A stretch of 58,546 nucleotides of DNA, the filler included, from a bacterium (GTDB taxonomy: Bacteria; UBP15; UBA6099; JAJRTR01): assembly GCA_024278215.1 (NCBI GenBank). It is 3 parts of 3 records of this genome, joined end to end, with 100 filler letters (N's around TTAATTAATTAA, not from the genome) between each part and the next. Parts side by side here need not be neighbours in the genome. Positions count along the whole stretch, not along the records: positions 1 to 17,255 come from JAJRTR010000013.1; positions 17,356 to 45,728 come from JAJRTR010000015.1; 1 more part is not named here. One strand, written 5' to 3'. Below the pieces are notes generated by a model. The model did not search any database. It was given only the letters and a program-made list of their open reading frames with translations, and was not told the origin of the DNA. Position numbers and translations under genes: made by a program. This document shows, one piece after another, positions 1,299-22,246 of the stretch; position 1 is the first letter of the stretch, and each line of letters starts with the position of its first letter.

Positions 1299-1477
1299 GA
1301 GCCAATTGCAAAATTATGTTCGTAGCGAGGCCGAACGAAATTTTTCAGAAGCAAGGCGGAGGTGCAAAATCCCCGCAGGCGTACTCGTCGAGTACGTTGA
1401 GGATGATTTTGTGCCGACAACGCGGCTATGGACAATTGCAGCCGACCGCAGCCGAATCAGAATTTTGCAATTGGCTC
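1299..1477 (+). mobile_element. MITE family A, copy 1
   Basis: TIR GAGCCAATTGCAAAATT...AATTTTGCAATTGGCTC; TSD TATT/TATT. Confidence 0.92.
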
Positions 1478-1696
1478 TATTGCACTTTGCAAAAGAGCTG
1501 GTTTGATTCTTACAAAATATTAAGGAAAGTTTAAGTTGACTAATACCCTCGTCCGGGGATATAACGGAAATATGATAAGTTTTCCGAATCGAATCAGATT
1601 TATTCCGAAATACACAACAAGGTGTCGAGATCAATTGATATTTTTCTTTCGGTCGTGGTCTGAAACAGAAACAGTATGTGAGAGGAGGTGAGTCTA

Positions 1697-2074
1697 ATGC
1701 AGATAACATTTGACCCCAGCGCCGTTGCCATGCCTTTATATCTGCCCGGACAGCAACAGGGATTACAGCAGATGCAACAGAGCGTAGGTAAAAGCGAGAA
1801 CCCCGCGGAAGAAGCCGCTGAACCCCGCGATTGTATTTTCGACCGTTTTTACCGTGTAGACAAGGCGCGCTCGCGGGAGATGGGCGGTGCGGGGCGGGGG
1901 TTGTCTTTCGCCCGCCGGGCTGTCGAAGCCAATGGGGGGAACATCGAAGAGGAAACCACAGAGGGAAAAGGTGAAAAGAAATGGAAAAACCATACAATCG
2001 AGTTAAGTCGATTCCTCTATCGGACATTGCTGTTTTTGTTGCGGTTTGCTGGATTGTCGCCGCACTTTTATTAA
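1697..2074 (+). pseudogene. Chimeric remnant: short Gln-rich N-terminus fused to a histidine kinase HATPase C-terminal fragment
   Basis: Strong RBS AGGAGGTG before ATG 1697; [30 protein letters not shown] matches the F and G2 boxes; H, N and G1 boxes are absent. Confidence 0.7.
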
Positions 2075-3348
2075 GTCCCTTTTTCGGGATCAACTGGTTT
2101 GCACCGGGTGATTTCAGCTATTCGGACGCCATGTACTATCACGGTGTCATGGTACCGGTTCTGATCCTTCTCTATCTTATAACACAGAAAACGCTCCACC
2201 TGAAAGTAGTGAATGAGCGAGTCTATTATGTGTGCGCGATACTTGCCGTCCTGTTCGTCGGCGCCGGGTCCGTCTTCAGTAGCGACGAAGGAATGTCCAC
2301 CGCCGTCATTGTTCAGATCATCGGCATGGTAATGACCGATTGCCTCGGTATAATCCTGTTGATCGGCATGGCGGCCCCAGCCCTGAAAAAGGATGCGAAA
2401 GAGAGAAAAACAGGTGCGGCGTTCCGGCTTCTGTTTTTCTCGATCGGCATGATTCTTATCGCAGCGCCTTTCGGACACCTTGCCGGATGGTGTCACGACA
2501 TAGGGATCGGAACCGTCCCCGGAACAAACGCACTGCTTAACACCGTCGGTATGACCCCGGCCGATTTCCAGGATGGGCTTACGGCATCTCACTCGCACCT
2601 TATTGTTGCCGCTCTTCTGTGTGGTCTGGCCGCTGTAGCGGCTATTTATTTCCAGTATCAGGCCCGCGCCGGCTGGAGAAAACGCATAAGCGACACCGGC
2701 TTATGGGTAACGCTTATCAGTCTCCTGTCGGCAACAGGCATTTATGTTGTTTCCGCTGTGATCGGCTGGGAGCCTCCGACGTTTTTCGTGTCGGGTCCAA
2801 GCGGCATTCCGCTCGACGACATAGTCTTATCAGCCGGACAAATCGGCATACTTCTGCTTATGGTGGGGCTTTCCGGGCGTTTGGAGCACAAAGGCGGGAA
2901 ATCATTTTCTCCACTCAAGGCAGACATTCGTATCGCCGTTTTCGTCAACTGGATAGCCGGATTCGCGGGCTCGGTACTGCCGGGCATCTTCATAGAACTC
3001 AACGAAGGCTTTTACGGAGCAGGTGAATCCCCGGCGCCCGGCGCTCTTAACGATAACATTTTTATACGTGCACACCTGCTGTACTCGTTTTTCCTTCTGC
3101 CTGTGTTCCTTGCTGTTCTGCTTGCCGTCGGAAGCAAATACAACAACCGCCCGGAACGACACACGTGGGCGAGGCTCTTTGCACGGGCCTCGGTTTTCGG
3201 CATGGCCACCGGGCTGGCAGGTGAGATACTGTGGTTTACAACTAACATTGACGGTTTTTTTGTCGCCGCCGTGTTTATTATGGTTGTCACACTTACAGCA
3301 GGTATAATAAGCCTGTGGCCTTGTGCGGATGCAAGTGATTTGGGATAG
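1981..3348 (+). CDS. Polytopic membrane protein of unknown function with several membrane-proximal His
   Basis: 455 aa, roughly 12 hydrophobic segments; [24 protein letters not shown]. Confidence 0.8.
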
Positions 3349-3450
3349 GCCCTTCAGGACGATCCCGTGCCGACATGCCGTCGCAAAAACTTTATGGCAA
3401 AAGCCGGTGAGTTCAGTAGAATAAACGATAAGCAGAAGGAGGCTTCAAAC

Positions 3451-4470
3451 ATGAAGAAGATTATGGTAGTAATCGCCATTACCGCCGCGGTGGCGATCCT
3501 GGGTTTAGGGTGCAGCGGAAAGTCGGCGAACAATAAAACCGTCACCGTCTACGTCTCCGAAGACCAGGTCTTCTCGGAACCCATACTCAAGGACTTCGAG
3601 AAAGAAACCGGCATAAAAGTCAAAGCGGTTTACGACACGGAAGAGGCAAAGAGCACCGGTTCCATGAACCGCCTTATCGCCGAGAAGAGCAACCCGCAGG
3701 CCGATGTCTACTGGGCCAATGAGCCGATTCGTGCGGAAGTTCTTAAACATAAGGGAGTCTCGGCTCCGTACACTTCCCCGAACGCCGCGGATATTCCGAA
3801 TGTATTTAAGGACCCGGAGGGATACTGGACAGGTTTTTCGGCCAGGGCCAGGGTGCTTGTCGTCAACAAAAACGTAAAAGACAAGCCGCAATCCATCAGC
3901 GCCTACACGGACCCGCGCTGGAAAGGGCGGGCGGTTATCGCCAATCCGCTTTTCGGAACTACAACGTCCGAAGTCGCCGCTCTGTTCACCATCTGGGGAG
4001 ACGAAAAGGCGAAGGCGTTCATGGCCGGAATGAAAAAAAACGGTGTCGCGGTATCAACAAATAACGGCGAAAGCGCGGATTTTGTCGCCGCGGGGCAATA
4101 TGATTTCAGTCTCGTGGACAGCGACGACGCGGTGAACCGCATTAGACAGGGTAAACCCATTGAAATGATCTACCCGGACCAGGGGCCGACCGGCCTGGGC
4201 GCTTTCATCGTGCCCAACGCCGTTCTCCTCATCAAGGGTGCGCCGCACCTGGAAAACGCAAAAATATTGATCGACTACCTGCTCTCAAAAGCGACGGAAC
4301 GCAAGCTGGCATTCGCAGACTGCGCACAGATTCCCCTGCACCCTGGTGTCGAGCTGCCTCCGGAAGTCAAGCCTGTCGAGAGCATCAGGGTTATGAAGGT
4401 CGATTATGCCGATGTCGCGGCAAAGATGGTCGACACACAGCCAATGCTTAAAGAGTGGATGGGGCTCTGA
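3451..4470 (+). CDS. Fe3+-type ABC transporter substrate-binding lipoprotein (FbpA/AfuA-like)
   Basis: RBS AAGGAGG; lipobox LGLGC; EK.NPQADVYW and WTGFSARARV. Confidence 0.88.
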   Translation: MKKIMVVIAITAAVAILGLGCSGKSANNKTVTVYVSEDQVFSEPILKDFEKETGIKVKAVYDTEEAKSTGSMNRLIAEKSNPQADVYWANEPIRAEVLKHKGVSAPYTSPNAADIPNVFKDPEGYWTGFSARARVLVVNKNVKDKPQSISAYTDPRWKGRAVIANPLFGTTTSEVAALFTIWGDEKAKAFMAGMKKNGVAVSTNNGESADFVAAGQYDFSLVDSDDAVNRIRQGKPIEMIYPDQGPTGLGAFIVPNAVLLIKGAPHLENAKILIDYLLSKATERKLAFADCAQIPLHPGVELPPEVKPVESIRVMKVDYADVAAKMVDTQPMLKEWMGL

Positions 4471-6057
4471 ATGGCAAGACGCGCCACACTCGCAACCGCC
4501 GCCATATTGCTTGTTGTAATCGGTCTTGCGCCTGTGGCCGCCATGCTTGTTAAAAGTGTGGTGGCAGATGGGCATTTCAGCCTTGCGGCCTACAGCGGGC
4601 TGCTGTCCTCCGGCCACGAGTGGCGTCTTGTTAATCACAGTTTCCTTTTGTCGACGATCGTCACATTATCCGCTACGGCGGTGGGATTGCCGCTGGGGAT
4701 ATTACTCTCAAAAACAGACCTTCCGTTTCGCCGGTTTTTTACCTTCATTTTTATTATTCCGCTGCTGGTCCCGCCATACATTACCGCAGTCTCATGGTTC
4801 TACCTCCTGGGCAAGGAAGGCTTTCTTACAAGGCATCTCAGCCCGTCCCTGGCGGAAGCCGTCAGTGGGCGTCTTTTCGGACTGCCCGGCTGTGTGCTTG
4901 TGCTGTTTTCCACTTTCCTGCCTGTTGTGATGTTGCTGACCATGACATGTCTCAGGACCGTCAATCCGCGACTTGAAGAAGCGGGGCGGCTTGTTGCCGG
5001 CTGGCCGGGTGTTCTCAAAGGGATCGTCATACCCCTGATCCTTCCGGGTGTTCTGCTGGCCGCGATGCTTGTATTTCTGCTGACATTCGGCGAATTCGGC
5101 GTGCCCGGATTCCTCAGGTACGACGTCTTCCCGGTGGAAAGTTTTACCCAGTTTTCCGCCTTTTACAACTTCGGAGCGGCGACGGCGGCAGCAGTCCCAC
5201 TCGCCGTTGTCACATTCCTGATTATCGGTGCGGAAAAGCTTTTTCTCCGCTAAAGAACATACCAGTTGCGGCCCGTCACAGACGGCGAACGATTACCTTT
5301 GATAGAACTCGGCCGTTACCGGAAACAGATGTTCATTACGGTTGGATTGTTCTGTTTTCTGATCGTGATCATGCCGATACTCGTGCTTGTCGCCCAATCG
5401 GCACATCTTTCCGCCTATGTCGAAGCATTCGGCAGGGCTGAGGACAGTCTTTTGCGCAGCATGGCCTACGCCGCCGCGGGCGCATCGCTGCTCGTCCTGC
5501 TCGGCTTCTTCTCCGGCTATCTCATACACACCAGAGCGCTGCCTTTCTGGCGCGGCGTCGATTCGATAACCATATTCCTTTTCGCCCTTCCAGGTACTGT
5601 TATCGGTATCGGACTGATCAGCTTATGGAACAGGCCGTGGACAAACTTTATCTATGCGACCCCGGCGATTATAATCCTCGGCTACCTTGCCAGGTACACC
5701 GCTCTCACAAGCCGGATCACCGTGTCCGCACTCGGCCTGATCCCGCCCTCGATGGAGGAAGCCGCGCAGATAGCGGGCGCGGGATGGCCCCGGCGTATGG
5801 CGATAATCGTCGCGCCCATGACAAAGACAGGCCTTGCGCTCGGCTGGCTTGTCGGTTACATCTTCTGCCTCCGGGACATGGGCATCACCATGATGGTCTA
5901 TCCTCCCGGCCACGACACACTGCCGGTCCGCATCTTCACGCTCATGGCCAACGGTTCGCCGGAACTCATAGCCGCCCTCTGCGTGCTCATGATCTCCGCC
6001 ACGCTCCTGCCTTTAACCGCGGGAGGAATAATATTCAGTCTGAGAGGTAATCATTGA
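4471..6057 (+). pseudogene. Fe3+ ABC permease (FbpB-like) interrupted by an in-frame TAA at 5251-5253; may be expressed as two half-permeases
   Basis: ORFs 4471-5253 and 5266-6057 share a frame; each half has one EAA motif (LEEAGRLVAG, MEEAAQIAGA). Confidence 0.75.
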
Positions 6058-6770
6058 ACATCATCGAGTTTGAAAACGTGACAAAACATTACAGCGGCCA
6101 AACAGCGCTGCACGACTTTTCGCTGGCGGTTGCCGAGGGCGAGCGCATCGTTATCCTCGGCCCTTCCGGTTGCGGAAAAACCACCGTGCTCCGGCTTCTG
6201 GCAGGATTCATTCCCCCTGATTCCGGGGCAATAAAAATAGCGGGTGAAACAGTTGCCGCCGATGGCAGAACCCTGAAAGAACCGGAGCGGCGCAATCTGG
6301 GAATGGTGTTTCAGGACCTGGCGCTCTGGCCGCATCTGACAGTAAAGGGAAACCTGGAGTTCGGCCTGAAGGCGAGAGGCGTGCCGAAAGCCGAAAGAGA
6401 AAACCGCATCTGCACAATACTGGGGCTTGTGCAGATGGAAGAATACGCCGGCGTCCGACCGGCGAATCTGTCGGGCGGTCAGCAGCAGCGCGTCGCTCTC
6501 GCCCGCGCGCTGGTATTGAATCCCCGCGCGCTCCTCATGGATGAACCTCTCTCCAGCCTCGATCTTGAACTCAATATACGACTCAGAAAAGAAATCCTCG
6601 AACTCCACAACAACATCGGGTTTACACTTCTCTATGTCACCCACGACCACGACGAGGCTTTCGACATCGGCACACGCATCGTGATTATGAAAGACGGAAA
6701 TATTGATATGGCCGGTTCAGTCGAAGAGAGCCGCGAGTATTTCGAGCGGACAGGCCCGAATCTCTGTTAA
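6054..6770 (+). CDS. ABC transporter ATP-binding subunit (FbpC-like, short)
   Basis: GPSGCGKT, LSGGQQQRV, LLMDEP and VTHD; TTGA overlap with the permease stop. Confidence 0.93.
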   Translation: MNIIEFENVTKHYSGQTALHDFSLAVAEGERIVILGPSGCGKTTVLRLLAGFIPPDSGAIKIAGETVAADGRTLKEPERRNLGMVFQDLALWPHLTVKGNLEFGLKARGVPKAERENRICTILGLVQMEEYAGVRPANLSGGQQQRVALARALVLNPRALLMDEPLSSLDLELNIRLRKEILELHNNIGFTLLYVTHDHDEAFDIGTRIVIMKDGNIDMAGSVEESREYFERTGPNLC

Positions 6771-7016
6771 TGCGAAAAAACCGACTCTTCAGAACGAACC
6801 GCATCCGACCGATGAAATTCAGAATCCGGATAATAAGGAAACCGGACGCTCCGGTGTCCTGTAGATGATGAAAGATAAGAGATCGTTCATGAACATCCTC
6901 ACGCCTTCGAAGCGGCGCGGCGGGTTTGAAGGGAACAGAGACAGAGAGTACAATAGTAAGAGACGCTGTTTTCGGCAGTTGCCGTGCAGCACCGGTCCGA
7001 ACAGGAAGCCAGCGTT

Positions 7017-7709
7017 ATGCCTTCATACGAAAAAAAAGAATCGCCGCCTCTCTTCAAATGTACGGAAGTGCTCGGTCTTTGCCGTGCTATGTGTTGCAAA
7101 CTCGGTGGCGGCGTGGCGCTCACTCCCGATGAGATCAGGTCGGGCAAATACCTGATGGAGTACCTCTGTATCGAAAAGAAGGAACAATGCACAAAAGACA
7201 TCGAGTGCTACCACAAGATTGTCCAGCTTAAAACAGAAAACGGAATATGCGTATATCTCGGCGATGACGACCACTGCACGATATATGAAGACAGGCCGCG
7301 GATGTGCCGCAACTACCTGTGTTCCACAGGCCACTGGAACGACTGGAAAAAGGACGTGCGGAACTATGTCGACCGCGAGTTGCTGAGGCTGAACCCCGAG
7401 CTGGTTTTCACGCACAACCCGGTGCGGCGGCTCTCGGCGGCTTTTCTTGTGCCCGATGAAAAAAGGATATTCCTTCTGGTGAACGACCGTAGCCTCTGCG
7501 ACGATGTCATGTACGGCGGCGAGTTCGAGTGGCCGGCGGCGGCGGCTTCCGATGTCGAAGCTGTTTATAAATCATTCGACGGCCTGAAGACACTAGGCGA
7601 CATCGAGCGAGGGATCGCAGACAGGATGGGCGCCGGTTCGGTCGAAGGATTCCGGCGCCTTGTGTTGCTTCTCACAGGCCAACATCTCCTGATAAATCTG
7701 ATGCGGTAG
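7017..7709 (+). CDS. YkgJ-family Cys-cluster (Zn/Fe-chelating) protein
   Basis: C..LC.AMCC N-terminal cluster and C.YL....CTIYEDRPRMCRNY.C. Confidence 0.8.
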   Translation: MPSYEKKESPPLFKCTEVLGLCRAMCCKLGGGVALTPDEIRSGKYLMEYLCIEKKEQCTKDIECYHKIVQLKTENGICVYLGDDDHCTIYEDRPRMCRNYLCSTGHWNDWKKDVRNYVDRELLRLNPELVFTHNPVRRLSAAFLVPDEKRIFLLVNDRSLCDDVMYGGEFEWPAAAASDVEAVYKSFDGLKTLGDIERGIADRMGAGSVEGFRRLVLLLTGQHLLINLMR

Positions 7710-7728
7710 CACGGTTTTTTCGATGGCG

Positions 7729-8457
7729 TTACTTCGTCAGGGCGCTGCCGATGATTTCCTTCACCTTCGCCATTAGTTCGCCCATATTTTCCAGAGAGTA
7801 GCCGTTGATGTCGACAGGCTTGTGAATCGTCATCGACGCGCGGCCCGGAAACAGCGCCCATGTCGTGGGCGGCAGTATCCGCATAGTTCCGTCCAGCGTC
7901 ACCGGCAGAATCGGCAGTCCCATTTCAAGCGCCATGTAGAACGCCCCTTTTTTGAATTCGCCCAGTTTCCCCGTCATGCTTCTTGTGCCCTCGGCGAAGA
8001 ACATCATGGACACGCCGCCCCTGATGCGTTCTTTCGCTTCGGCGATGGATTTTATAGCCGCCTCGGTGTTGGAGCGGTCGACGAAAACATTACCGACCCG
8101 CACACTTGAATAGCCGAGGAAGGGGACTTTGCGCAATTGTTTCTTCATCACCCAGCGCAGGTTCATCTTCAGGTGTCCGAAGATCGACAGCATGTCGTAG
8201 ACGCTCTGGTGGTTCGCCACAACGACATAAGATTGCGCATGGTCGATATGCTCCCGGCCCGTGACCGTGAGAAACATTGGTGTGATGCCGCAGACGAACC
8301 GTGCCCACCAGCCGCCGAAAAACATGCACGCCACCTTTTTGCTGAAGTACGAAGCGATAATCGCGCTCGTTCCGAAAACCGCCATAGATATGCCTACCAT
8401 CGGGATAACAAACAGCCACTTGTACGGCTGGTATAAAACACGCCAGAATGTATTCAT
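7729..8457 (-). CDS. plsC: 1-acyl-sn-glycerol-3-phosphate acyltransferase
   Basis: NHQSVYD, FVDR, FAEGTRS and FKKGAF motifs. Confidence 0.9.
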   Translation of the reverse strand: MNTFWRVLYQPYKWLFVIPMVGISMAVFGTSAIIASYFSKKVACMFFGGWWARFVCGITPMFLTVTGREHIDHAQSYVVVANHQSVYDMLSIFGHLKMNLRWVMKKQLRKVPFLGYSSVRVGNVFVDRSNTEAAIKSIAEAKERIRGGVSMMFFAEGTRSMTGKLGEFKKGAFYMALEMGLPILPVTLDGTMRILPPTTWALFPGRASMTIHKPVDINGYSLENMGELMAKVKEIIGSALTK

Positions 8458-8603
8458 TTCAAATCGCCCTGCGTCTCTTCGTTTTTCAACTATGGATGAA
8501 AAACCGTGAAAATAAAATCAATATACCAATTATGTAATAAAACGTAATCTCAATTTTCAGCCTGGGATAGCTCCACGTTGAACCCGGTTATTCTACACTA
8601 TAT

Positions 8604-8819: not shown

Positions 8820-8827
8820 TTATCATA

Positions 8828-9005
8828 GAGCCAGTTGCAAAATTATGTTCGGAGCGAGGTCGAACGAAATTGTTCAGAGCAAGACGGATGTGTAAAATCC
8901 CCGCAGGTGTACTTTTAGAGTACGTCGAGGACGATTTTATGCCGGCAACGCAGCTATGGACAATTGCAGCCGACCGCAGCCGAATCAGAATTTTGCAACT
9001 GGCTC
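8828..9005 (+). mobile_element. MITE family A, copy 2
   Basis: TIR variant GAGCCAGTTGC/GCAACTGGCTC, with both ends changed in a compensatory way; TSD CATA/CATA. Confidence 0.92.
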
Positions 9006-11567: not shown

Positions 11568-11743
11568 GAGATTGCAAAATTATGTTCGTAGCGAGGTCGA
11601 ACGAAATTTTTCAGAAGCAAGGCGGAGGTACAAAATCCCCGCAGGCGTACTCGCCGAGTACGTCGAGGATGATTTTGTGCCGACAACACAGCTATGGACA
11701 ATTGCAGCCGACCGCAGCCGAATCGGAATTTTGCAATTGGCTC
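11568..11743 (+). mobile_element. MITE family A, copy 3 (3-bp deletion in left TIR)
   Basis: GAG---ATTGCAAAATT...AATTTTGCAATTGGCTC; TSD TAAT/TAAT. Confidence 0.9.
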
Positions 11744-14597: not shown

Positions 14598-15674
14598 ATG
14601 AAACTGAACGATTTATTGAAAATGATGGTCGATAGAGAGGCATCCGACCTGCATCTGAAAGTAGGCCGACCGCCGGTTATCAGGCTGCACGGAAAACTCG
14701 TCGCCACCGACTATGACCGGCTCACAACCCGCGACATGGACGACTTCCTCTTCGATGTGCTCGACGACGAAGACCAGCTCAGGCTCAAAAAAAATAAAGG
14801 CATCGATGTCGCATACAGTCTTCCCGGTGTTTCTCGCTTCAGGGTCAACATCCTCTACCAGCGCGGAACGATAGCGCTTGTCATCAGAACTATTCCTTTC
14901 CATATACCTTCCGTCCATGACCTCGGCCTTCCGGAGATCGTCAAGGACCTGGCGACACGAAACGCGGGGATCGTCATCGTAACCGGCCCGGCCGGTTCAG
15001 GAAAATCCACAACGCTCGCCGCAATGATCGAATACATCAACAACACGATGCACAAACAGATCATTACGATCGAGGACCCGATCGAATACCTTTTCAGAGA
15101 CGACAAATCATCTGTCATACAACGCGAAGTCGGCTCGGACACTCTGTCTTTCGAAGAGGGCCTGAGGATGATCTTCAGGCAGGACCCCGATGTCATCATC
15201 GTCGGCGAGATGCGCGACCTCGAGACAATCAGCACCGCCATGAGCGCCGCCGAAACCGGCCATCTTGTCATAAGCACTCTCCACACACTGGATGCTTCCC
15301 AGACAATCGACCGCATCATCGACTCGTTCCCGCAGGCACAGCAGAGACAGATAAGAATCCAGCTCGCAATGGTGCTCAAGGGCATCATCTCCCAGCGACT
15401 GTTACCGACAAAAAATGGAACCGGGCGTTGCGCCGCCGTCGAGATAATGACTAATTCGCCGGGTATCGCAGACCTGATTCTCGAAGGCAAATCGGGCGAA
15501 CTTTACGACACGATACGCGCGTCGGTCGAAAACTACGGTATGCAGACACTCGAACAATCCCTCGCGGCGCTGCTGGTATACGATAAGGTTACCTACGAAG
15601 AAGCACGCAACACCAGCCAGCGGGTTTCCGAACTCGACATCGCTCTGCGAACACTGTTTCCTGATTATATGTGA
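14598..15674 (+). CDS. pilT: PilT/PilU-family type IV pilus retraction ATPase
   Basis: ASDLHL, TGPAGSGKSTT, TIEDPIE, RQDPDVIIVGEMRD and ETGHLV.STLH. Confidence 0.88.
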   Translation: MKLNDLLKMMVDREASDLHLKVGRPPVIRLHGKLVATDYDRLTTRDMDDFLFDVLDDEDQLRLKKNKGIDVAYSLPGVSRFRVNILYQRGTIALVIRTIPFHIPSVHDLGLPEIVKDLATRNAGIVIVTGPAGSGKSTTLAAMIEYINNTMHKQIITIEDPIEYLFRDDKSSVIQREVGSDTLSFEEGLRMIFRQDPDVIIVGEMRDLETISTAMSAAETGHLVISTLHTLDASQTIDRIIDSFPQAQQRQIRIQLAMVLKGIISQRLLPTKNGTGRCAAVEIMTNSPGIADLILEGKSGELYDTIRASVENYGMQTLEQSLAALLVYDKVTYEEARNTSQRVSELDIALRTLFPDYM

Positions 15675-15706
15675 ATCAAAAGAAATACATCCGCGAGGTG
15701 AAGAAG

Positions 15707-16072
15707 ATGGAAGAAGAAAAAAAAGATCAATCACAGGTTGGATCACCCAGCGACTATGCGGCTCTGCTTCGCACTGTACGCGACACCGAGAACCTCAAAC
15801 TCGAAATCCACCAGCTTCGCAACCAGCTCAAAACAGCAGAATCGCGGCTTATGTCTCTCGATCAGCAGGTAAAATCCTATCAGCAATCTTTGCAGGAACG
15901 CGACGAGAAAATAGAAGAACTCCAGTCGCAGGTCGGCGACAGAAGCAAAGGCCTGGTGGCGAAATTGAGGCAGAAAGACGAAACGATCAACCGCTTGCAG
16001 ACTGCTCTCCAGAACAAGCACCGCGAAATGGAAGAACTGAAATCCAAGGGCGGCATCTTCGGCAGGAAATAA
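15707..16072 (+). CDS. Small coiled-coil protein
   Basis: RBS GAGGTG; heptad-rich Q/E/K/L sequence; C-terminus KGGIFGRK. Confidence 0.75.
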   Translation: MEEEKKDQSQVGSPSDYAALLRTVRDTENLKLEIHQLRNQLKTAESRLMSLDQQVKSYQQSLQERDEKIEELQSQVGDRSKGLVAKLRQKDETINRLQTALQNKHREMEELKSKGGIFGRK

Positions 16073-16286
16073 TCTTTTCGCCATAATCTGCCCTGCCCTG
16101 TCGCGCCGGAACCGAACAGGAGTTCGGAGTTTGCTCGTTCTTATAGTCCACCCCGGAAACGATGATAGAAAATTAATTCCCGGCGCTGAAAGCGACAATG
16201 AATTGTCGTACTCCAAATCGCTTTGTGCCCTTAAGCAAACGCTATTTGAGTTGATCCCGATGCTGACATCGGAGAATTCTTCACGA

Positions 16287-17255
16287 TTATAGTTTTATTT
16301 CATAGATTCCGCATTTCGACGCGACGAAAAGCCGCGGCGGGCTTCCGGTGTAGAGCAGCGCGCGGGTCTGATCGCCGATTGGAAACTCGTCTATGATGTC
16401 GCCCGTTTCCCTGTCGATCTCGGTGAACTTGCCGCCGAAATATTTCACGAGAAATATCTTTTTACCATCGCGTGAAAGTGCGATCTCATGGCCGCCGAAA
16501 CCGACGTGGTACACACGCTTTGTTTTCATGCTCTCGCAATCAAGCACATCGATTCGACCAAGCACGCCACGCGACACAAATAGTTCGCAGCTCTCTTCGT
16601 CCAGCGCGAGGCCCGTCGAAACGAAAGGGAGAAACCTTTGCCTGTCCAGCTTCATTCCGTCTATTTCAAGCCTGTAAACACTTCCTGAAATCCAGTCGGA
16701 AACAAACATTGCATTGCGCCGGTGGTCGATCTTCAGGTCGTAGAGATGAGGCTGTCCGATAGGCAGATGTTGTGCACGCACCGAATAGTCTTCGCGGGAT
16801 AATCTGAACAGCCACGGTTTCTCGGAAAGAACAAAAAACTCGTCGCCATACTCCTCGATTTCTATCAGTTTGCTTTTGCCGGTGTCGGCGAAGAACACAG
16901 GTTCGGAACGTTCGAGATCATAAATCATGATTTTCGGCTTTTTCCACATCGGCATTACCGCAAGTCCTTTTTCGGGAATGAAGCGAATCTGCTGTATGTT
17001 GCCGAACCCAAGGTTTTCAGTTGTGAATTCCAGGTAGGCATCAGGATTGATGCGGCTGAAGGTGGTGTCGTCACGTCCGCTGACCGCGTAGAGCAAACCA
17101 CCGAGCATCTCGATATCGTATATATTGTGTGTTGCCTTGAGGCAACCGTCATGCTTCGCGCCCCTGAGTTCACCGCATTGCGCAAACGAGAGAACACGAA
17201 TAAGGCGGTCGTCCGGATCGAAGTTGCAGTCTGCCTGCCTGGTGTCCGACGAGTA
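16287..17255 (-). CDS. YVTN/YncE-like beta-propeller protein, 5'-truncated by the gap
   Basis: Repeats such as GLALDE...LFVS and IALSRDGKKIFL; the frame stays open from 17108 to the contig edge. Confidence 0.75.
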   Translation of the reverse strand, partial: YSSDTRQADCNFDPDDRLIRVLSFAQCGELRGAKHDGCLKATHNIYDIEMLGGLLYAVSGRDDTTFSRINPDAYLEFTTENLGFGNIQQIRFIPEKGLAVMPMWKKPKIMIYDLERSEPVFFADTGKSKLIEIEEYGDEFFVLSEKPWLFRLSREDYSVRAQHLPIGQPHLYDLKIDHRRNAMFVSDWISGSVYRLEIDGMKLDRQRFLPFVSTGLALDEESCELFVSRGVLGRIDVLDCESMKTKRVYHVGFGGHEIALSRDGKKIFLVKYFGGKFTEIDRETGDIIDEFPIGDQTRALLYTGSPPRLFVASKCGIYEIKL

Positions 17256-17355
17256 NNNNNNNNNNNNNNNNNNNNNNNNNNNNNNNNNNNNNNNNNNNNT
17301 TAATTAATTAANNNNNNNNNNNNNNNNNNNNNNNNNNNNNNNNNNNNNNNNNNNN
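17256..17355. other. Artificial contig spacer
   Basis: 100 nt of N around TTAATTAATTAA (stops in all six frames). Confidence 0.97.
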
Positions 17356-17406
17356 CAGATGTTCCATTGCGAACAGTTACCTGTGAACGGATAAAAAGGA
17401 AACATT

Positions 17407-18093
17407 ATGAAAAAGTGCGACGAATACAGCGGGGACCTGATCCTCTACATATACGGCGAACTCGACGATCCCGAAAAGATGAAACTCGAGAAACACATCG
17501 CCGGCTGCGCAGCCTGCGCGGCGGAACTCGAAGAGCTGCGCGTCGTGCACGACGCCGTAGCAGAGTCAATAACGGAACCGGCGATATCCCTACAGACTTC
17601 GGAACGCATCAGATGGAACGCACGCAAGACCGCTGCGGGATTCATCAGGCAGTCGTCCCCGGCAATTACGGCGCGTCGGTTTCGCACAAAAACATTTGTG
17701 GCCGCCGCCGCCGCTTGTTTGCTTTTCGCGATTGTAACAACCGCTTATGTTTTCCTTATCCAGGACAGGCCGTCCGCACCTCCGCGTGTGACCGAATATG
17801 CAGCCAGCACTGAATCGCTTTCCTGGGAAAGCGATATCTCGGAACCGCTGGAAAGAATAGACGCCCGGCTCGCGCGAATGAATGAGAGACGGGAAATAAA
17901 ACATAAACTGAAAAAGCCGGGGCTCGAAACCCGGCTGCGCAATATGAAATCGCAACTCGGCGCGTCCGAAAGGGTCGCCTTAGCGCCGGGCGCGGCGCGA
18001 AGGGCACGATGCCGCGACGCCATCGACAGTTCCCTGCGACGCCTGCGCAGAGACATGCGCTCACTCAAACAGGATGTCGGAAACGATGTGTAG
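17407..18093 (+). CDS. Zinc-finger (zf-HC2) anti-sigma factor, single TM
   Basis: YIYGEL...LEKHIAGCAAC (HxxxCxxC) followed by a TM segment AAAAACLLFAIV. Confidence 0.85.
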   Translation: MKKCDEYSGDLILYIYGELDDPEKMKLEKHIAGCAACAAELEELRVVHDAVAESITEPAISLQTSERIRWNARKTAAGFIRQSSPAITARRFRTKTFVAAAAACLLFAIVTTAYVFLIQDRPSAPPRVTEYAASTESLSWESDISEPLERIDARLARMNERREIKHKLKKPGLETRLRNMKSQLGASERVALAPGAARRARCRDAIDSSLRRLRRDMRSLKQDVGNDV

Positions 18094-18178
18094 TCCCTTA
18101 TCGTGCTGTAAGAAAAAATATGTCGACTTTCAGATCGGCAAAAAGATTCCTGAAAAAATTTTTCGGAGGGATATTAAG

Positions 18179-18754
18179 ATGAGAACAATAACAAAGCCAA
18201 CAATGATATTATTAGCAGCAGCGCTGATAATCGGTGCGATGAGCATTTGCGCCTGCGCGCAGGACCTGCTGCCCGAATGGGAGATCAGCGTACAGGATTT
18301 CAAGCAGGCGGTCGAGACGATAAAAAAAGACGAACCCGATTATTACGCCGCCTTGCTGCTTATAAAGAAAGACGATGAAGAGTACTATACAGAACTTGTC
18401 GCCGACTGGATATTCGAACAGCGCGACCTTGAAGATATGAAGCAACACGACCCGGAGTACTATAACGAAAGCAAAAAACAGGCTGATCTCGAAAAAGAGG
18501 AGCGCCGCCTGACTGGACTGTACAGAACGGCAAAAACAGAAGTCGAGAAGCAGTCGATAAATAAAAAACTTATGGTTTTGCTCGATCAGTTGTTCGACGA
18601 GAAGCTCAGACTACAGAAACTCGATGTCAGGGAACTCGAGAGTGAACTGAGCAGCATCAAACGGGATATCGAACGCCGCGAGAAAAACAAGCAGAAGATC
18701 ATCGAGCGCCGCCTCGCTGAATTGAAAGGCGAAGACGAAGACCTCGAATGGTGA
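18179..18754 (+). CDS. Exported helical protein (possible accessory of the ECF locus)
   Basis: RBS GGAGG; signal peptide; charged helical C-terminus. Confidence 0.75.
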   Translation: MRTITKPTMILLAAALIIGAMSICACAQDLLPEWEISVQDFKQAVETIKKDEPDYYAALLLIKKDDEEYYTELVADWIFEQRDLEDMKQHDPEYYNESKKQADLEKEERRLTGLYRTAKTEVEKQSINKKLMVLLDQLFDEKLRLQKLDVRELESELSSIKRDIERREKNKQKIIERRLAELKGEDEDLEW

Positions 18755-18810
18755 GTTCGACAAGAGAGAGCAAAAGTGGTTGTATGATCGAGCCGTATTA
18801 TTCCTGATGA

Positions 18811-18898
18811 TAACCCGCACATTTCACCAGTTCGGGTAAGAAATCGCAAGTTAGCCCATAATACAAGGCGCCGCACACATGTTCGTATGTGTGCGGCG
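18811..18898 (+). repeat. Family B partial copy (left end through CAAGGCG, then a perfect hairpin)
   Basis: Reverse-complement similarity to 22186-22246; hairpin CGCCGCACACAT-GTTCGT-ATGTGTGCGGCG. Confidence 0.7.
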
Positions 18899-18916
18899 TT
18901 TGCGTTTTCAATTATT

Positions 18917-19095
18917 GAGCCAATTGCAAGATTCTGTTTCGGCTGTGGTCGGCTGCAATTGTCAACAGCTGCGTTGTCGGCACAAAATCTTCCTCGACGT
19001 ACTCTACAAGTACGCCTGCGGGGATTTTGCAACTCCGCCTTGCTTCTGAAAAATTTCGTTCGACCTCGCTTCGAACATAATATTGAAATTGGCTC
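18917..19095 (-). mobile_element. MITE family A, copy 4
   Basis: TIRs; TSD TATT/TATT; its terminal base completes the TAG stop of the adjacent gene. Confidence 0.92.
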
Positions 19096-20978
19096 TATTG
19101 CAGTTTTTGTAATTTCAGCAAACCGCCGTCATCGTCGTCCATATATCTATCGACGAATTGTTTGAGATGATTCTGCACATTTTGCGGATCGTCAACCGGC
19201 ATCGAACATGCTGTGCCGACACATGCGAACATCGTGGGTTCGGGGCGCGGGCTGTAGGGATGGACCTCGAAAAGAGCTTTGTCGCGACCGGGGGCGAGAA
19301 CCATTAAAACTTTATTCGGCTCGTAGAATCGAGCCGCCTGCCGCCTCAATTCCTGTGTCGCCGCATCGTCCACCGGACCAACAACCGCTATATTGAGCGG
19401 ATAAAAAGAGAATGCGTAGGCCGCGCGAATGTACTGGAAATACTCATTGGCTTTTATTCGTTTCGTATCGGCAACACGGCCCCGCACGGCACCCAGCGCC
19501 GCCGCCGCGCGTTCGAGATACTCTTCGCGCAAAGTTATGTAATAGAGCCTCACTAATTCGGCGGCCATTACGGAGTTCCCTTCGAGTGGTTTATATTTTG
19601 CGAGTGTTTCGCCGGTTATGCCGTCGCCGGTGTCGCCGTAGAAATAGCCGCCGTTATCCGGGTCTCCGAATTTTTGTTCTATAAACGCCGCGAGTTTCCG
19701 CGCGCGTTCCAGCCACGCGGAATCGCCTGTGCCGCTGTATGTGTCGAGATATGCGCGGAGCAGATATGTATTGCTCTTAAGCAAGCCGTAGGCGGAGCCT
19801 CTGTTGTCGTCAACAAAAACCGGCGCGCCTCGAACTTCGTCGAATTGCTTTTCGCGCAGCCACTGTGCAGTCTTCAGCGCTCTCTTGCGCCATGCCGGGC
19901 GGTTGTAGAAATCCGCGGCCCGGAACATCGCGCCGGCATACATTGAATTCGAGACGGTGTATATGTTTCTGTCTCTTTCGGGCATCCCGAACTTATCTCG
20001 TTCGCCACCCCATTTTGTGAAGAAATCTTTTCCTGAAATCGTTTTGCCGCCACTTTCCATACCGTCGGCCTGACCACCGAAGATACCGCCGCCCGCGCCG
20101 GAAAGGAAGTCTCCTATATACCTGACGGCCTCAGCGGCAATGGCCGTTTTGCCACCTGTCGCACCCGCATACATTACGGACGCATCGATTGCCGCCGCGT
20201 TGGTTTCGAGGTGCTTCTCGTAGTTTTTCGGGCCGTCGAACACGCCGCCCCATTGCGTGTCCAGTATATTATCGAGTTTCTCCGTCATTTCATCGGCGAG
20301 TTTTTTGTAGATATCCTCTTTTGTTATTCTCGCAGCTATGAGATAGTACATAATCCTGTCGGTCGCGGGCAGCCTGATCGTGTCGGGATCAAAGTCCTTT
20401 ATTTCTTTATTAAGAAACTTTTTCAATTCATCTTTTTTTGCGGGCTCTTTTTGTTGTTTTTTCAATTTTGCGGTGACAACGGGGCATTTATCGCCTACAA
20501 CATTTCCATCAATTTCACTGCTTGCGGGAAGCGAAGACACGTCGTGAACATCCACGTCCGCGATGATTATTCCTTCTTGCGAAATCACTTTCAGGCCTGT
20601 CCCATAACATTCCTCTACATAAGGGAGGCTCCTGTTGTAGACCCTGACAGGCACATAACCTTTGATTTTCTCCGCCACTTCAGGATTATCGAAGAAGTTT
20701 TTCTCCGTCGTTCGCGCTTCGAGGCTGAATTCGTCGTTGACATAAAGCAATATTGCTCTGTTGCCGGCGACGGCTTTGTCGAAAGCCTTTTCGCCCCATT
20801 CGAGCCAACCTATTCCGCTTGTGGCCGGCAAACTTTTCTCGTCGGGAAGTGTAAAAGCGGTTTTTTCTTTCGGCGCGGCTGCTTCCTTTTCGGGGCCGGA
20901 ACAGCTGGCTGCCATGAAAGCCGTAATTGCGACGGCGAAGACAAAGCAAATTGATCTCAAGCTCATAGACATTCGCAT
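19095..20978 (-). CDS. DUF255 thioredoxin-like plus (alpha/alpha)6 lipoprotein (YyaL/SPATA20-like)
   Basis: Lipobox MAASC; W.EWG.KAF.KA, YEKHLETNA, FGDPDNGGYF, P.EGNS.MA and ACVGTACSMP. Confidence 0.85.
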   Translation of the reverse strand: MRMSMSLRSICFVFAVAITAFMAASCSGPEKEAAAPKEKTAFTLPDEKSLPATSGIGWLEWGEKAFDKAVAGNRAILLYVNDEFSLEARTTEKNFFDNPEVAEKIKGYVPVRVYNRSLPYVEECYGTGLKVISQEGIIIADVDVHDVSSLPASSEIDGNVVGDKCPVVTAKLKKQQKEPAKKDELKKFLNKEIKDFDPDTIRLPATDRIMYYLIAARITKEDIYKKLADEMTEKLDNILDTQWGGVFDGPKNYEKHLETNAAAIDASVMYAGATGGKTAIAAEAVRYIGDFLSGAGGGIFGGQADGMESGGKTISGKDFFTKWGGERDKFGMPERDRNIYTVSNSMYAGAMFRAADFYNRPAWRKRALKTAQWLREKQFDEVRGAPVFVDDNRGSAYGLLKSNTYLLRAYLDTYSGTGDSAWLERARKLAAFIEQKFGDPDNGGYFYGDTGDGITGETLAKYKPLEGNSVMAAELVRLYYITLREEYLERAAAALGAVRGRVADTKRIKANEYFQYIRAAYAFSFYPLNIAVVGPVDDAATQELRRQAARFYEPNKVLMVLAPGRDKALFEVHPYSPRPEPTMFACVGTACSMPVDDPQNVQNHLKQFVDRYMDDDDGGLLKLQKLQ

Positions 20979-21080
20979 AAATACCTCGCTGGACAAATAT
21001 ATTTTCTGAGCTTGTCGAAGGATATAATCTTTCACCCTCGATCCGCTTCGCTCAGGGAATATTACTTTCATGTCAACTTT

Positions 21081-21258
21081 GAGCCAATTGCAAAATTCTG
21101 ATTCTGCTGCAGTCGGCTGCTATTGTCCATAGCTGCGTTGTCGGCACAAAAACGTCCTCGACGTACTCTACGAGTACGCCTGTGAGTATTTTACACCTCC
21201 TCCTTGCTCCGAACAATTTCGCTCGACCTCGCTACGAACATAATTTTGCAATTGGCTC
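21081..21258 (-). mobile_element. MITE family A, copy 5
   Basis: Perfect 17-bp TIRs; TSD CTTT/CTTT. Confidence 0.92.
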
Positions 21259-21366
21259 CTTTTTGTTGACGTATGAAGAGCAGACAATGGCAGGATCGCC
21301 GTATCCAGCTTAAGCATATATTATGCGGAAACTGTTTGTACAGACGTTACCGGCTTTGCGCCGCTC

Positions 21367-21699
21367 TCAGTGGTCGCAGACGTTCGAGCCGGTCTCCAGC
21401 GTGCCGTCCATATATTGCTTCACAGCTTCTTCGGGTTCTATCGACGGTGCTCCGATAACTACCTTTATGCCGAACTGATCGAAGAACTGTACTGCTTTTT
21501 GGCCCATACCGCCCGCGAGTATTACGTCGACATTATTCTCGTTGAGAAATTTGGGGATGACACCCGGCTCATGCGGCGGCGGTGTGAGTTTCTCGCTTCC
21601 CACGATTTTTCCATCCTCCACGTTGAACACGGAAAATGTCTCACAATGTCCGAAGTGCATGCAAAGTCTCTCTTCAGCTACCGGTACAGCTACTCTCAT
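21367..21699 (-). CDS. NifB/NifX-family (dinitrogenase FeMo-co domain) protein
   Basis: HFGHCE.F, PPPHEPG..P, AGGMG.KA and C-terminal N.CDH. Confidence 0.88.
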   Translation of the reverse strand: MRVAVPVAEERLCMHFGHCETFSVFNVEDGKIVGSEKLTPPPHEPGVIPKFLNENNVDVILAGGMGQKAVQFFDQFGIKVVIGAPSIEPEEAVKQYMDGTLETGSNVCDH

Positions 21700-21887
21700 G
21701 TTTCTCACCTCTCTGCTTATTATTATTGTAACTTTTCATTCTTTTCGCCAGTTATTCCTTTATCCATAGTCCTTACGGGGTTTTCGTTCAGTAAGTATAC
21801 AGTCCCCGTATATGCAACGACACAGTCGTTTCACTCCTAAACGTTTCCGGGTATGCCCCTGGTGTCGCGTCACACTTGTAAATGCGC

Positions 21888-21981
21888 AAGGGCGGGGTCA
21901 CCGTACCCCGCCTGAGCATATTTCTCGCGAAAACGGTTTTTACAGGCACAAGTTTAGGCGGGGTACGGTGACCCTGTCCTT
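21888..21981. repeat. Inverted pair of REP-like palindromes (REPIN-like)
   Basis: AAGGGCGGGGTCACCGTACCCCGCCT and its near-perfect reverse complement about 40 nt away. Confidence 0.7.
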
Positions 21982-22042
21982 TTATCGTTTATACGCTAAC
22001 TCGTCTAATGTCTTTTCTTTGTTGACATGACAATAGGCCTTT

Positions 22043-22246
22043 TAGCCCGGATTTCTCGAAAAGAAATCCGGAAAATCGCAATAACGCCTATTTTACTGCG
22101 TTGCGGCTGCGATTCGGGATCGGTCACATACCTGCATTTTGCGTAAGAGGTCGGCTGGCCGGCTGCTTCCTCACCACTCACTTGCCACGCCTTGTATTAC
22201 AGGCATTCTCCCGATTTTAACCCGCATTGGTGAAACATGCGGGTTA
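22043..22246 (-). mobile_element. MITE family B (TA-ended, ERIC-like core)
   Basis: Ends TAGCCCGGATTTC...GAAACATGCGGGTTA; minus strand reads CAAGGCGTGGCAAGTGAGTG...GTATGTGAC...CGCAGCCGCAACGCAG. Confidence 0.7.

What the first reader, a model, noticed from the sequence alone, without database searches (positions are those of the whole stretch)
1351..22246. One ERIC-like structured core carried inside two MITE families with unrelated termini
Seen: the family A core is GCAAGGCGG-stem-GCAGGCGTACT-loop-AGTACGTCGAGG-stem-CAACGCAG. Family B (22043-22246, minus strand) has different TA-CCCG-type ends, yet reads CAAGGCGTGGCAAGTGAGTG...GGAAGCA...GTATGTGAC...CGCAGCCGCAACGCAG. Established, from my recollection of the consensus: enterobacterial ERIC reads GCAAGGCGGCAAGTGAGTG...GGAGCTTAC...GTAAGTGAC...CGCAGCCAACGCAG with TA ends. 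Inference: a conserved RNA or ssDNA module is kept under selection while its transposon ends are swapped. It would be a portable structured cassette, possibly a protein-binding or RNA-processing element, far outside the Enterobacterales. This is my best candidate for an undescribed system.
Basis: partly seen in the sequence, partly recalled or inferred. Interest (0 to 1): 0.85.

Follow-up and report, generated by a model that had tools for sequence, protein, structure and literature searches.

The report
ERIC-like hairpin core inside MITEs
A small non-coding jumping element that litters this uncultured bacterium's DNA carries at its centre a folded 90-base module that also sits in a differently ended element from other metagenomes and, more distantly, in the ERIC repeats of E. 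coli, which the papers I read place only in enterobacteria and vibrios.

Summary
Family A is real. It is a 176-179-bp MITE with nine copies in 58.5 kb, a 17-nt terminal inverted repeat and 4-bp AT-rich target duplications.

Its 90-nt centre resembles genuine E. coli ERIC copies beyond chance:
- A covariance model of the A core has one hit in the whole K-12 chromosome, and that hit is an ERIC.
- An ERIC model's five best hits in the window are all A copies.
- Genome-tile and structure-preserving shuffle controls agree.

The similarity is weak: 64-68% identity and 14-20 bits.

The same core, at 56-70 bits, sits in a second 180-bp element (family C) on two metagenome contigs. Its arms show no detectable likeness to A's.

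A, C and ERIC all fold better on the same homologous strand.

"Family B" is not supported. It is a single copy, neither model finds it, and one supposed terminus is a separate small hairpin that recurs alone.

The host is far from enterobacteria (23S 73% identical to E. coli).

The idea of a shared core with different ends therefore holds, but with a different second family. What the core does is untested.

Earlier unchecked notes of this scan report the same ERIC-like core on other DNA from many phyla. The papers I read place ERIC only in Enterobacteriaceae and Vibrionaceae.

The parts
1299..1477 (+). Family A copy A1 (179 bp); core 1344-1433; TSD TATT/TATT; starts 28 nt after the stop of ORF 93..1271
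8828..9005 (+). Family A copy A2 (178 bp); core 8872-8961; TSD CATA/CATA
11568..11743 (+). Family A copy A3 (176 bp; left terminal repeat lacks 3 nt); core 11610-11699; TSD TAAT/TAAT
18917..19095 (-). Family A copy A6 (179 bp); core 18961-19050; TSD TATT/TATT on the + strand; its last base is part of the stop codon of ORF 19095..21071 (-)
21081..21258 (-). Family A copy A7 (178 bp); core 21125-21214; TSD CTTT/CTTT; lies 10 nt upstream of the start of ORF 19095..21071 (-)
40326..40503 (+). Family A copy A4 (178 bp); core 40370-40459; flanks TATC/GATC (3 of 4); ends 2 nt from the stop of ORF 40506..41996 (-); best ERIC-model hit in the window (19.9 bits)
45829..46002 (+). Family A copy A5; left end hidden by a masked N run (45785-45828); core 45869-45958
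51337..51513 (-). Family A copy A8 (177 bp, most diverged); core 51381-51469; flanks TTTC/TTTA (3 of 4)
56119..56296 (-). Family A copy A9 (178 bp); core 56163-56252; flanks TTTC/ATTC (3 of 4); the last codons and the stop of ORF 55171..56139 (+) lie inside it
22043..22246 (-). It is an imperfect palindrome of about 140 nt (22072-22219), flanked by two separate small hairpins. ERIC-like words are present but not significant.
22217..22246 (.). A second copy stands alone at 25127-25156 (27 of 30 identical).

Best explanation
Family A is a non-autonomous DNA transposon (MITE).

Shown:
- It is 176-179 bp, non-coding, bounded by 17-nt terminal inverted repeats and by 4-bp AT-rich target-site duplications.
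- It has nine copies in 58.5 kb, all between or at the very ends of ORFs.
- Its interior is a hairpin module of about 90 nt. That module is clearly shared with family C from two metagenome contigs (73-79% identical). It is distantly but non-randomly shared with the enterobacterial ERIC repeat (64-68%).
- The arms, terminal repeats and target duplications differ between the three.
- In 22 of the 23 copies folded (all 9 A and all 12 ERIC, but only 1 of 2 C) the module folds better on the same homologous strand, through G-U pairs.

Inferred:
- A DDE transposase encoded elsewhere in the genome moves the element in trans. An IS5-like enzyme is my guess, from the 4-bp duplication (recalled knowledge).
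- A, C and ERIC are branches of one old superfamily of palindromic MITEs. In it the central hairpin is the conserved chassis, and the ends are what changes when a different transposase takes over, by replacement or by divergence.
- The chassis is kept because one strand must fold. Most likely this is the RNA when the element is co-transcribed with neighbouring genes, as reported for ERIC in Yersinia (orientation-dependent RNase E effect on mRNA decay). Less likely it is single-stranded DNA during transposition or replication.
For: MITE anatomy:
- Terminal repeat: 16 matches against 0.23 expected, all at element ends.
- 4-bp duplications: perfect in 5 of 8 copies with both flanks readable, 3 of 4 bases in the other 3.
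- No reading frame is open in all copies.

Likeness to ERIC:
- The A-core model R1 against the whole K-12 chromosome (4.64 Mb, both strands) gave one match: 639526-639616(-), 18.1 bits, E 0.8, full length. This is the ERIC copy found independently with the ERIC2 primer pattern.
- The ERIC model R2 against the window with filters off put A copies, on their own strand, in ranks 1-5 (14.9-19.9 bits, E 0.005-0.12). 7 of 9 A copies are among the 28 matches at E<=10.
- R2 against L015-L017: ranks 1-2 are the two C copies (19.0 and 18.5 bits).
- R1 against 184 kb of viral loci: 3 matches at E<=1, all on ERIC copies.
- Sequence-only alignment of 12 ERIC copies to 1922 window tiles: A tiles take ranks 1-19 under one scheme and lead under all three.
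- Structure-preserving shuffles: 7 of 9 A cores beat 400 of 400; the other two were reached by 1 and 15 of 400.
- Dinucleotide shuffles against the ERIC HMM: 5 of 9 A copies beat 500 of 500.
- Best pair: 62 of 93 aligned positions.

Family C:
- R1 scores 69.6 and 56.4 bits. Core identity to A is 73-79%.
- C's arms score no better against A or B than against unrelated window DNA.

Structure:
- On A+C, 93.8% of cells are paired. 8 pairs change on both sides, against 3.2 in shuffles (0 of 500 reach it). Slid controls give 0-4.
- The forward strand folds more stably than the reverse in 9 of 9 A, 12 of 12 ERIC and 1 of 2 C.

Host: the 23S is 73.4% identical to E. coli's.

ERIC biology is taken from passages of PMC2229807, PMC10969869 and PMC2759123.
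Against: - The link to ERIC is weak in absolute terms. True ERICs score 105-148 bits on R2; A and C score under 20 bits.
- nhmmer with the ERIC HMM found no A copy at E<=10 in the window.
- A sequence-only A profile picked out only one of 12 K-12 ERICs (L010: 5.6-8.1 bits, E 0.05-0.8). The rest were in the noise.
- 2 of 9 A copies are missing from R2's list. A7 is reached by 91 of 500 and 15 of 400 shuffles.
- An unrelated palindrome at 21893-21975 reaches 14.7 bits on R2 through structure alone.
- RNAalifold on the MAFFT alignment of 23 A, C and ERIC cores predicted no common pair at all. By my reading of the alignment, the apical stems of the two groups are 1-2 columns out of register.
- The G-U versus A-C count (49 to 3; 40 to 0) is biased, because the structures were derived on the forward strand.
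- Copies sit in both orientations relative to flanking ORFs, about 3 sense and 2 antisense where I could tell. This gives no support to an RNA role.
- No transposase with matching ends is in the window, and no whole genome is held.
- The hosts of family C are unknown, so A and C may come from close relatives.
- Covariation in a palindromic DNA element does not by itself show an RNA function.
Confidence: 0.65

Rival explanations
1. The resemblance of the A core to ERIC is chance or convergence. Two unrelated G+C-balanced long hairpins of similar size happen to share a few short words, and A is simply a lineage-specific MITE.
For: - Scores are low: 14-20 bits, E 0.005-0.8.
- The HMM-only searches are at or below noise for most copies.
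- An unrelated palindrome scores 14.7 bits on the ERIC model.
- A chance 20-mer match to a terminator hairpin turned up in the metagenome scan (L014).
Against: - The best hits are reciprocal, in unbiased searches of 4.64 Mb and 58.5 kb.
- All top window tiles are A copies in the homologous orientation only.
- Random hairpins with the same pairs and composition reach the real score in 0 of 400 trials for 7 of 9 copies.
- The similar blocks are collinear over about 90 nt.
- A and ERIC share the same strand polarity of folding.
Confidence: 0.15
2. One reading: element B (22043-22246) is a second MITE family in this window, with TA-CCCG-type ends, that carries the same ERIC-like core.
For: - The quoted words are there and are collinear with ERIC copies L006 and L007.
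- B ranks 21st-22nd of 1922 tiles under two scoring schemes.
- The pooled model aligns it full length on the minus strand (11.4 bits).
- B folds as a long hairpin (z -3.95).
- By eye, one end resembles the terminal repeat of family C.
Against: - B is a single copy.
- It is not hit by R1 or R2 at E<=10.
- R3 gives E 1.1, below false positives.
- It ranks 197th under the third scheme and never beats the best unrelated tile.
- 13 of 500 shuffles score as well.
- One 'terminus' is an independent hairpin repeat.
- C's arms match B no better than background.
Confidence: 0.15
3. A and C are one element family by whole-length descent. Nothing was swapped: the terminal 45 nt on each side simply diverged faster than the centre, for instance while tracking a diverging transposase.
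For: - A and C have the same total length (176-179 against 180 bp).
- They share the same layout: about 45-nt arms around a 90-nt core.
- Both terminal repeats contain a TTGCAA word, and A ends are among the top but not significant matches of C's left arm.
Against: - The arms show no similarity above unrelated window DNA, while the cores are 73-79% identical.
- In transposons the transposase-bound ends are normally the most conserved part (established knowledge).
- ERIC carries the core with much shorter arms and, by the literature, a TA duplication (PMC2759123, passages).
Confidence: 0.25
4. The core is a host-selected functional RNA, such as a regulatory or processing element, that merely looks like a transposon passenger.
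For: - Compensatory changes.
- Stronger folding on one strand.
- The precedent of ERIC's effect on mRNA decay (PMC2229807, passages).
Against: - In this window the core never occurs outside the element bounded by terminal repeats and target duplications: 9 of 9 R1 hits.
- Copies lie in both orientations relative to neighbouring ORFs and in unrelated contexts.
- No Rfam family matches at E<=10 over 18850-22300.
- No consistent promoter or terminator signal falls in the four copies that lie in the 20 kb scanned, A1, A2, A3 and A6.
Confidence: 0.1

Closest known systems
ERIC / IRU / RU-1 (enterobacterial repetitive intergenic consensus, about 127 bp)
   Same: - Long imperfect palindrome, non-coding, intergenic or at gene ends, multi-copy.
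- About 90 nt of collinear sequence similarity in the centre (64-68%).
- The forward strand folds better in both.
- Each family's model gives the other its best hits.
   Different: - A is 176-179 bp, with about 28 further nt on each side beyond what aligns to ERIC.
- Its terminal repeats are different, and it makes 4-bp AT-rich duplications instead of TA. The TA feature is from PMC2759123 and PMC3184786 (passages).
- It scores under 20 bits on an ERIC model, where true ERICs score over 100.
- The host's 23S is 73% identical to E. coli's, whereas ERIC is reported only from Enterobacteriaceae and Vibrionaceae (PMC10969869, passages; my plasmid search: the named genera, 248 of 251 records, were all Enterobacterales; 3 further genera were not shown).
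Family C
   Same: - Same 90-nt core (R1 56-70 bits; 73-79% identity).
- Same size (180 bp) and same layout.
- Compensatory changes keep the stems.
   Different: - The arms and terminal repeats show no detectable similarity.
- The target duplication cannot be read from two complete copies.
- The host is unknown.
MITEs derived from IS5-type insertion sequences (4-bp duplications; recalled from general knowledge of IS families)
   Same: Short terminal repeats, a 4-bp duplication and AT-rich targets.
   Different: - No partner IS or transposase was seen, so the assignment is a guess.
- MITEs derived from an IS by deletion keep IS-end sequence rather than a foreign conserved hairpin in the centre.
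Correia/NEMIS elements of Neisseria and YPAL/RU-2 of Yersinia
   Same: Abundant hairpin-forming MITEs of 100-170 bp. They are co-transcribed with neighbouring genes, and RNases cleave them or alter mRNA stability (PMC10969869 and PMC2229807, passages).
   Different: No sequence relation was tested or seen. They have TA duplications and are confined to single genera.
REP / REPIN elements mobilised by RAYT tyrosine transposases
   Same: Strand-specific hairpins that occur in many phyla (PMC3733652, passages).
   Different: REPs are 20-40 nt, lack terminal inverted repeats and target duplications, and carry a GTAG or CGTC tag at one end. A has terminal repeats and 4-bp duplications.

Membership tests
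[quoted passage not shown] | Terminal inverted repeats | tested here: met
   The 17-nt repeat is at both ends of the copies: 16 matches at up to 3 mismatches against 0.23 expected.
[quoted passage not shown] | Target-site duplication of fixed length | tested here: met
   The 4-bp direct repeat is perfect in 5 of 8 copies with both flanks readable, and matches at 3 of 4 bases in the other 3.
[quoted passage not shown] | Small, non-coding, multi-copy | tested here: met
   176-179 bp. Nine copies in 58.5 kb. No frame is open in all copies.
[quoted passage not shown] | An autonomous partner element with the same ends that encodes the transposase | not testable with these tools
   No such element is in the window. 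No whole genome is held. Both genome-contig scans returned nothing.
ERIC / IRU | Sequence match to the ERIC consensus at family level | tested here: not met
   True ERICs score 105-148 bits on R2. A scores 9.9-19.9 bits and C 18.5-19.0 bits. This makes A a distant relative, not a member.
ERIC / IRU | Imperfect palindrome of about 127 bp | tested here: not met
   A is 176-179 bp. Only its inner 123 nt or so aligns to the 126-position ERIC model.
ERIC / IRU | TA at the termini and a TA target duplication (PMC2759123, PMC2229807, passages) | tested here: not met
   The ends read GAGCC...GGCTC, with 4-bp duplications such as TATT, CATA and CTTT.
ERIC / IRU | Host in Enterobacteriaceae or Vibrionaceae (PMC10969869, passages) | tested here: not met
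   The window's 23S is 73.4% identical to E. coli's. An earlier unchecked note places the genome in the uncultured phylum UBP15.
ERIC-related superfamily (proposed here and in earlier notes of this scan; not a published family) | Non-random, collinear similarity of the central hairpin to ERIC, with reciprocal model hits | tested here: met
ERIC-related superfamily (proposed here and in earlier notes of this scan; not a published family) | A common secondary structure in one alignment of all branches | tested here: inconclusive
   RNAalifold on the MAFFT alignment of 23 cores found no pair. Each branch folds as a long hairpin on its own. The model-guided alignments are fitted to one structure.
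Rfam RNA families | Match to any curated covariance model | tested here: not met
   With gathering scores, only 23S and 5S rRNA matched in the window. At E<=10 over 18850-22300 (A6, A7, B) there were only microRNA-hairpin noise hits on other palindromes.
REP / REPIN (RAYT-mobilised) | 20-40-nt hairpin with a GTAG or CGTC tag, no terminal repeats, no duplication | tested here: not met
   A is 176-179 bp with terminal repeats and duplications.

The most novel reading that the evidence does not exclude
The ERIC hairpin of 90-100 nt is not an enterobacterial curiosity. It is an old, strand-specific structured module that travels through distant bacterial phyla inside MITEs with different terminal repeats and target duplications. 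It is kept by selection for a sequence-specific interaction on one strand (an RNase, another protein, or single-stranded DNA handling) that nobody has identified.
Probability: 0.35. Interest if true: 0.85.

Novelty: new variant of a known kind. Interest (0 to 1): 0.62.

Why it matters
ERIC has been known since 1990-91 and is used worldwide for strain typing. Its origin, its transposase and the reason for its conserved centre are still unknown. The reviews I read place it only in Enterobacteriaceae and Vibrionaceae.

A relative with different ends and a different target duplication, in a bacterium whose 23S is only 73% identical to E. coli's, has two consequences:
- ERIC becomes one branch of a wider family.
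- The conserved centre can be separated from the transposase-bound ends.

This makes an old question testable: what does the centre do? Families that share only the centre can now be compared, and the centre can be deleted or exchanged in a transposition or mRNA-stability assay.

The element is also very dense here, at one copy per 6.5 kb. It touches stop codons and 5' regions, so it probably shapes gene ends and expression in this lineage.

Tried and rejected
- blastn of A and B against 5,426 E. coli genomes: B gave nothing. A gave one irrelevant 46-nt hit at E 2.
- blastn of A, B and C against plasmids, and of A against phages: only short hits in coding genes at E 0.2-8.
- nhmmer with the ERIC HMM against the window: 4 hits at E 0.11-7.5, none in A or B.
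- Whole genome of the window: not held. Searches among 'relatives' or with 'of' are therefore impossible. Metagenome, plasmid and E. coli loci give no genome handle with relatives.
- Two genome-contig scans with A patterns returned 0 stretches.
- Viral-contig scans with four A-specific patterns: 0.
- A gapped pattern of blocks shared by A, C and ERIC gave 25 viral loci. 9 were classical ERICs and 16 had no model match, so no new ERIC-like family was found there.
- Sequencing runs: none was listed, and no RNA holder was listed.
- RNAalifold on the sequence-based A+C+ERIC alignment: no pairs.
- Promoter and terminator scan of 1-20000: no site recurs in the A copies.
- Coding potential of A: no frame is open in all copies.
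- Target duplication of family C: it cannot be decided from two complete copies.
- Taxonomy look-up of 'UBP15': no such name in the NCBI taxonomy. I did not verify the phylum myself.
- Supplementary files of papers were closed. The MITE catalogue of PMC11602168 may list cross-genus MITE clusters that I could not see.

Full report
**What is in the window.** Repeat finding and alignment show nine copies of one element, family A, in 58.5 kb. That is one copy per 6.5 kb.
- The element is 176-179 bp long.
- It begins and ends with a 17-nt inverted repeat. This repeat occurs 16 times at up to 3 mismatches, against 0.23 expected, always at element ends and never as a wider pair that could bracket an insertion sequence.
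- A 4-bp AT-rich direct repeat flanks it. The repeat is perfect in 5 of the 8 copies whose two flanks can be read, and matches at 3 of 4 bases in the other three. The ninth copy has its left end under a masked N run.
- No reading frame is open in all copies.
- All copies lie between ORFs or touch their ends. One supplies the G of a stop codon, one contains the last codons and the stop of an ORF, and one sits 10 nt before a start codon.
- The element folds into one long imperfect hairpin (-72.8 kcal/mol, z -5.2).

This is the anatomy of a MITE.

**Getting real ERIC sequences.** The ERIC2 primer (recalled) used as a pattern on the E. coli K-12 chromosome gave 12 places and none for the reversed control.

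**Is the A core like ERIC beyond chance?**
- Crude searches failed.
  - blastn against all E. coli genomes found nothing useful.
  - nhmmer with an ERIC profile did not find A in the window.
- Searches that use sequence and structure succeeded in both directions.
  - A covariance model of the 90-nt A core (R1) searched against the whole K-12 chromosome returned one match: 18.1 bits, E 0.8, full length. It is exactly one of the 12 ERIC copies, on the ERIC strand.
  - An ERIC model (R2) searched against the window with filters off placed A copies, each on its own strand, in ranks 1 to 5 (14.9-19.9 bits, E 0.005-0.12). It listed 7 of the 9 copies among 28 matches.
  - In 184 kb of viral loci, R1 gave three matches at E<=1. 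All three were on ERIC copies.
- Three controls argue against an artefact of composition or of hairpin shape.
  - Plain local alignment of the 12 ERICs to 1922 overlapping window tiles puts A tiles, in the homologous orientation only, in the first 19 ranks under one scoring scheme and at the top under all three.
  - Dinucleotide shuffles never reach the real score against the ERIC HMM for 5 of 9 copies. The other four were reached by 1, 8, 9 and 91 of 500.
  - Shuffles that keep every base pair and the composition never reach the real score for 7 of 9 copies. The other two were reached by 1 and 15 of 400.
- The similarity is weak in absolute terms.
  - The best pair has 62 of 93 aligned positions identical.
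  - True ERICs score 105-148 bits on R2, while A scores under 20.
  - A sequence-only A profile recognises only one K-12 ERIC.
  - An unrelated palindrome reaches 14.7 bits on R2 through structure alone.

I conclude that A is a distant relative of ERIC, not a member of the family.

**A second family with the same core.** A scan of metagenome contigs with a 20-nt piece of the A centre gave four loci.
- One (L014) is a chance match to a terminator hairpin.
- L015 and L017 each carry a complete 180-bp palindromic element, and L016 carries a truncated one. I call this family C.
- R1 scores the two complete copies at 69.6 and 56.4 bits. The cores are 73-79% identical to A's.
- The ERIC model's two best hits in these loci are again these two elements (19.0 and 18.5 bits).
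- Outside the core, C's 45-nt arms match nothing in the window better than unrelated DNA. A's ends and B are in the noise.

- A and C have the same length and layout, so the ends may have diverged rather than been exchanged.
- I could not learn what organisms carry C.

**Structure and strand.**
- On the model-guided alignment of 9 A and 2 C cores, 93.8% of cells pair. Eight pairs show changes on both sides, against 3.2 in shuffles (0 of 500 reach it). Sliding the partners gives 0-4.
- Folding each strand on its own, the forward strand (the one that aligns between families) is more stable in 9 of 9 A cores, 12 of 12 ERICs and 1 of 2 C cores.
- G-U pairs outnumber A-C oppositions 49 to 3 in A+C and 40 to 0 in ERIC. 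That count is biased, because the structures were derived on the forward strand.
- RNAalifold on a purely sequence-based alignment of all 23 cores found no common pair. By my reading of the alignment, the apical stems of the two groups are one or two columns out of register.

A single shared structure is therefore not demonstrated. What is demonstrated is that each branch is a long hairpin with similar words at comparable places and the same strand polarity.

**Element B.**
- The quoted words are there, and the region folds well (z -3.95).
- B is a single copy.
- R1 and R2 do not find it at E<=10.
- A pooled A+C+ERIC model (R3) aligns it at 11.4 bits, E 1.1. That is below a false positive inside the 23S gene.
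- It ranks 197th, 21st and 22nd of 1922 tiles and never exceeds the best unrelated tile.
- Its 'TA-CCCG' end on one side is a self-contained 30-nt hairpin that recurs alone at 25127-25156.

B may be a decayed relative, but the evidence does not show it.

**Host and literature.**
- The window's 23S rRNA is 73.4% identical to E. coli's over 2870 aligned columns.
I did not verify this.
- In the passages I read, ERIC is described as follows:
  - It is a 127-bp MITE of Enterobacteriaceae, with a variant in Vibrio.
  - It has TA ends and TA duplications.
  - No transposase is known for it.
  - In Yersinia it has an orientation-dependent effect on mRNA decay through RNase E.
  - Sources: PMC3184786, PMC2759123, PMC2229807, PMC2267715, PMC10969869.
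- My plasmid search with a K-12 ERIC found it in 251 records. The genera named in the output, which account for 248 of them, are all Enterobacterales; three further genera were not shown.
- Six full-text searches found no report of ERIC homologues outside Gammaproteobacteria, nor of a MITE core shared across phyla (and passages in 38, 72, 104).
- I did not read Hulton 1991, Wilson and Sharp 2006, De Gregorio 2005 or Zo 2011. They are cited through those passages. Supplements were closed.

**Earlier notes of this scan.** A word search returned many unchecked AI notes (235 hold the words, eight were shown) that describe ERIC-like hairpin cores in MITEs of other genomes from many phyla. One has IS5-type ends and 4-bp duplications. 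Another reports a 78-nt core shared by elements with unrelated termini that keeps its shape on one strand.

My results on this window agree with them, and I reached them with my own models and controls. I could not test the claim of a pan-bacterial range, because no genome handle was available.

**How it most likely works.**
- Shown: the element has the marks of cut-and-paste or copy-in by a DDE transposase acting in trans (terminal repeats, a fixed 4-bp duplication, AT-rich intergenic targets).
- Inferred:
  - The enzyme is of an IS5-like kind (recalled knowledge of duplication lengths).
  - The central hairpin is an inherited chassis common to A, C and ERIC.
  - It is kept because one strand must fold, most likely the transcript, by analogy with ERIC. 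Copies here lie in both orientations relative to their neighbours, which gives that reading no support.
  - A role as single-stranded DNA in transposition or replication is the alternative.

**Verdict.** The element is a new variant of a known kind: an ERIC-related MITE with different ends and a different target duplication, in a distant bacterium. The link to ERIC is statistically sound but weak. The function of the core is open.

Noticed in passing
window 17256-17299, 17312-17355, 45729-45772, 45785-45828: Four 44-nt runs of N in two pairs, each pair split by 12 readable bases. They produce the spurious repeat families D3 and I16, and they hide the left end of A copy A5.
   Followed up: partly
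window 21887-21982: A separate palindrome of about 96 nt with a 17-bp G+C-rich stem, single copy. It lies between A7 and B. It draws structure-only hits from the ERIC models (14.7-15.4 bits) and from a microRNA hairpin family in Rfam.
   Followed up: partly
window 22217-22246 and 25127-25156: A 30-nt hairpin repeat, TTAACC(C/T)GCAT-loop-ATGCGGGTTA, in two copies with 27 of 30 bases identical. It may be a small REP-like element of its own.
   Followed up: partly
window 30761-30808, 42285-42354, 44452-44521: Three copies of a 48-63-nt direct repeat (77-81% identical), all on the + strand (families D4 and D7). It could be a shared promoter or leader.
   Followed up: no
window 46013-46087 (inverted), 47493-47567, 51197-51269: Another 73-75-nt repeat family with three copies, 82-89% identical (D5 and I23). 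One copy lies next to A5 and one near A8.
   Followed up: no
window 27217-30546: 23S and 5S rRNA genes with no 16S gene anywhere in the window, which reaches 27 kb upstream. Relative to E. coli, the 23S carries insertions of 26 and 52 nt near 27498-27590.
   Followed up: partly
window 10953-10999 and 47160-47206: A two-copy 47-nt direct repeat, 79% identical (D8).
   Followed up: no
L016:4399-4593 (-): A copy of family C whose right half, from the apical loop onward, is replaced by unrelated AT-rich sequence. This is a truncation or a later insertion.
   Followed up: no
L014:1-40: The 20-nt A-core pattern also matches, by chance, a perfect terminator-like hairpin at the end of a contig labelled as a human-gut metagenome assembly. 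It is not related to the element.
   Followed up: yes
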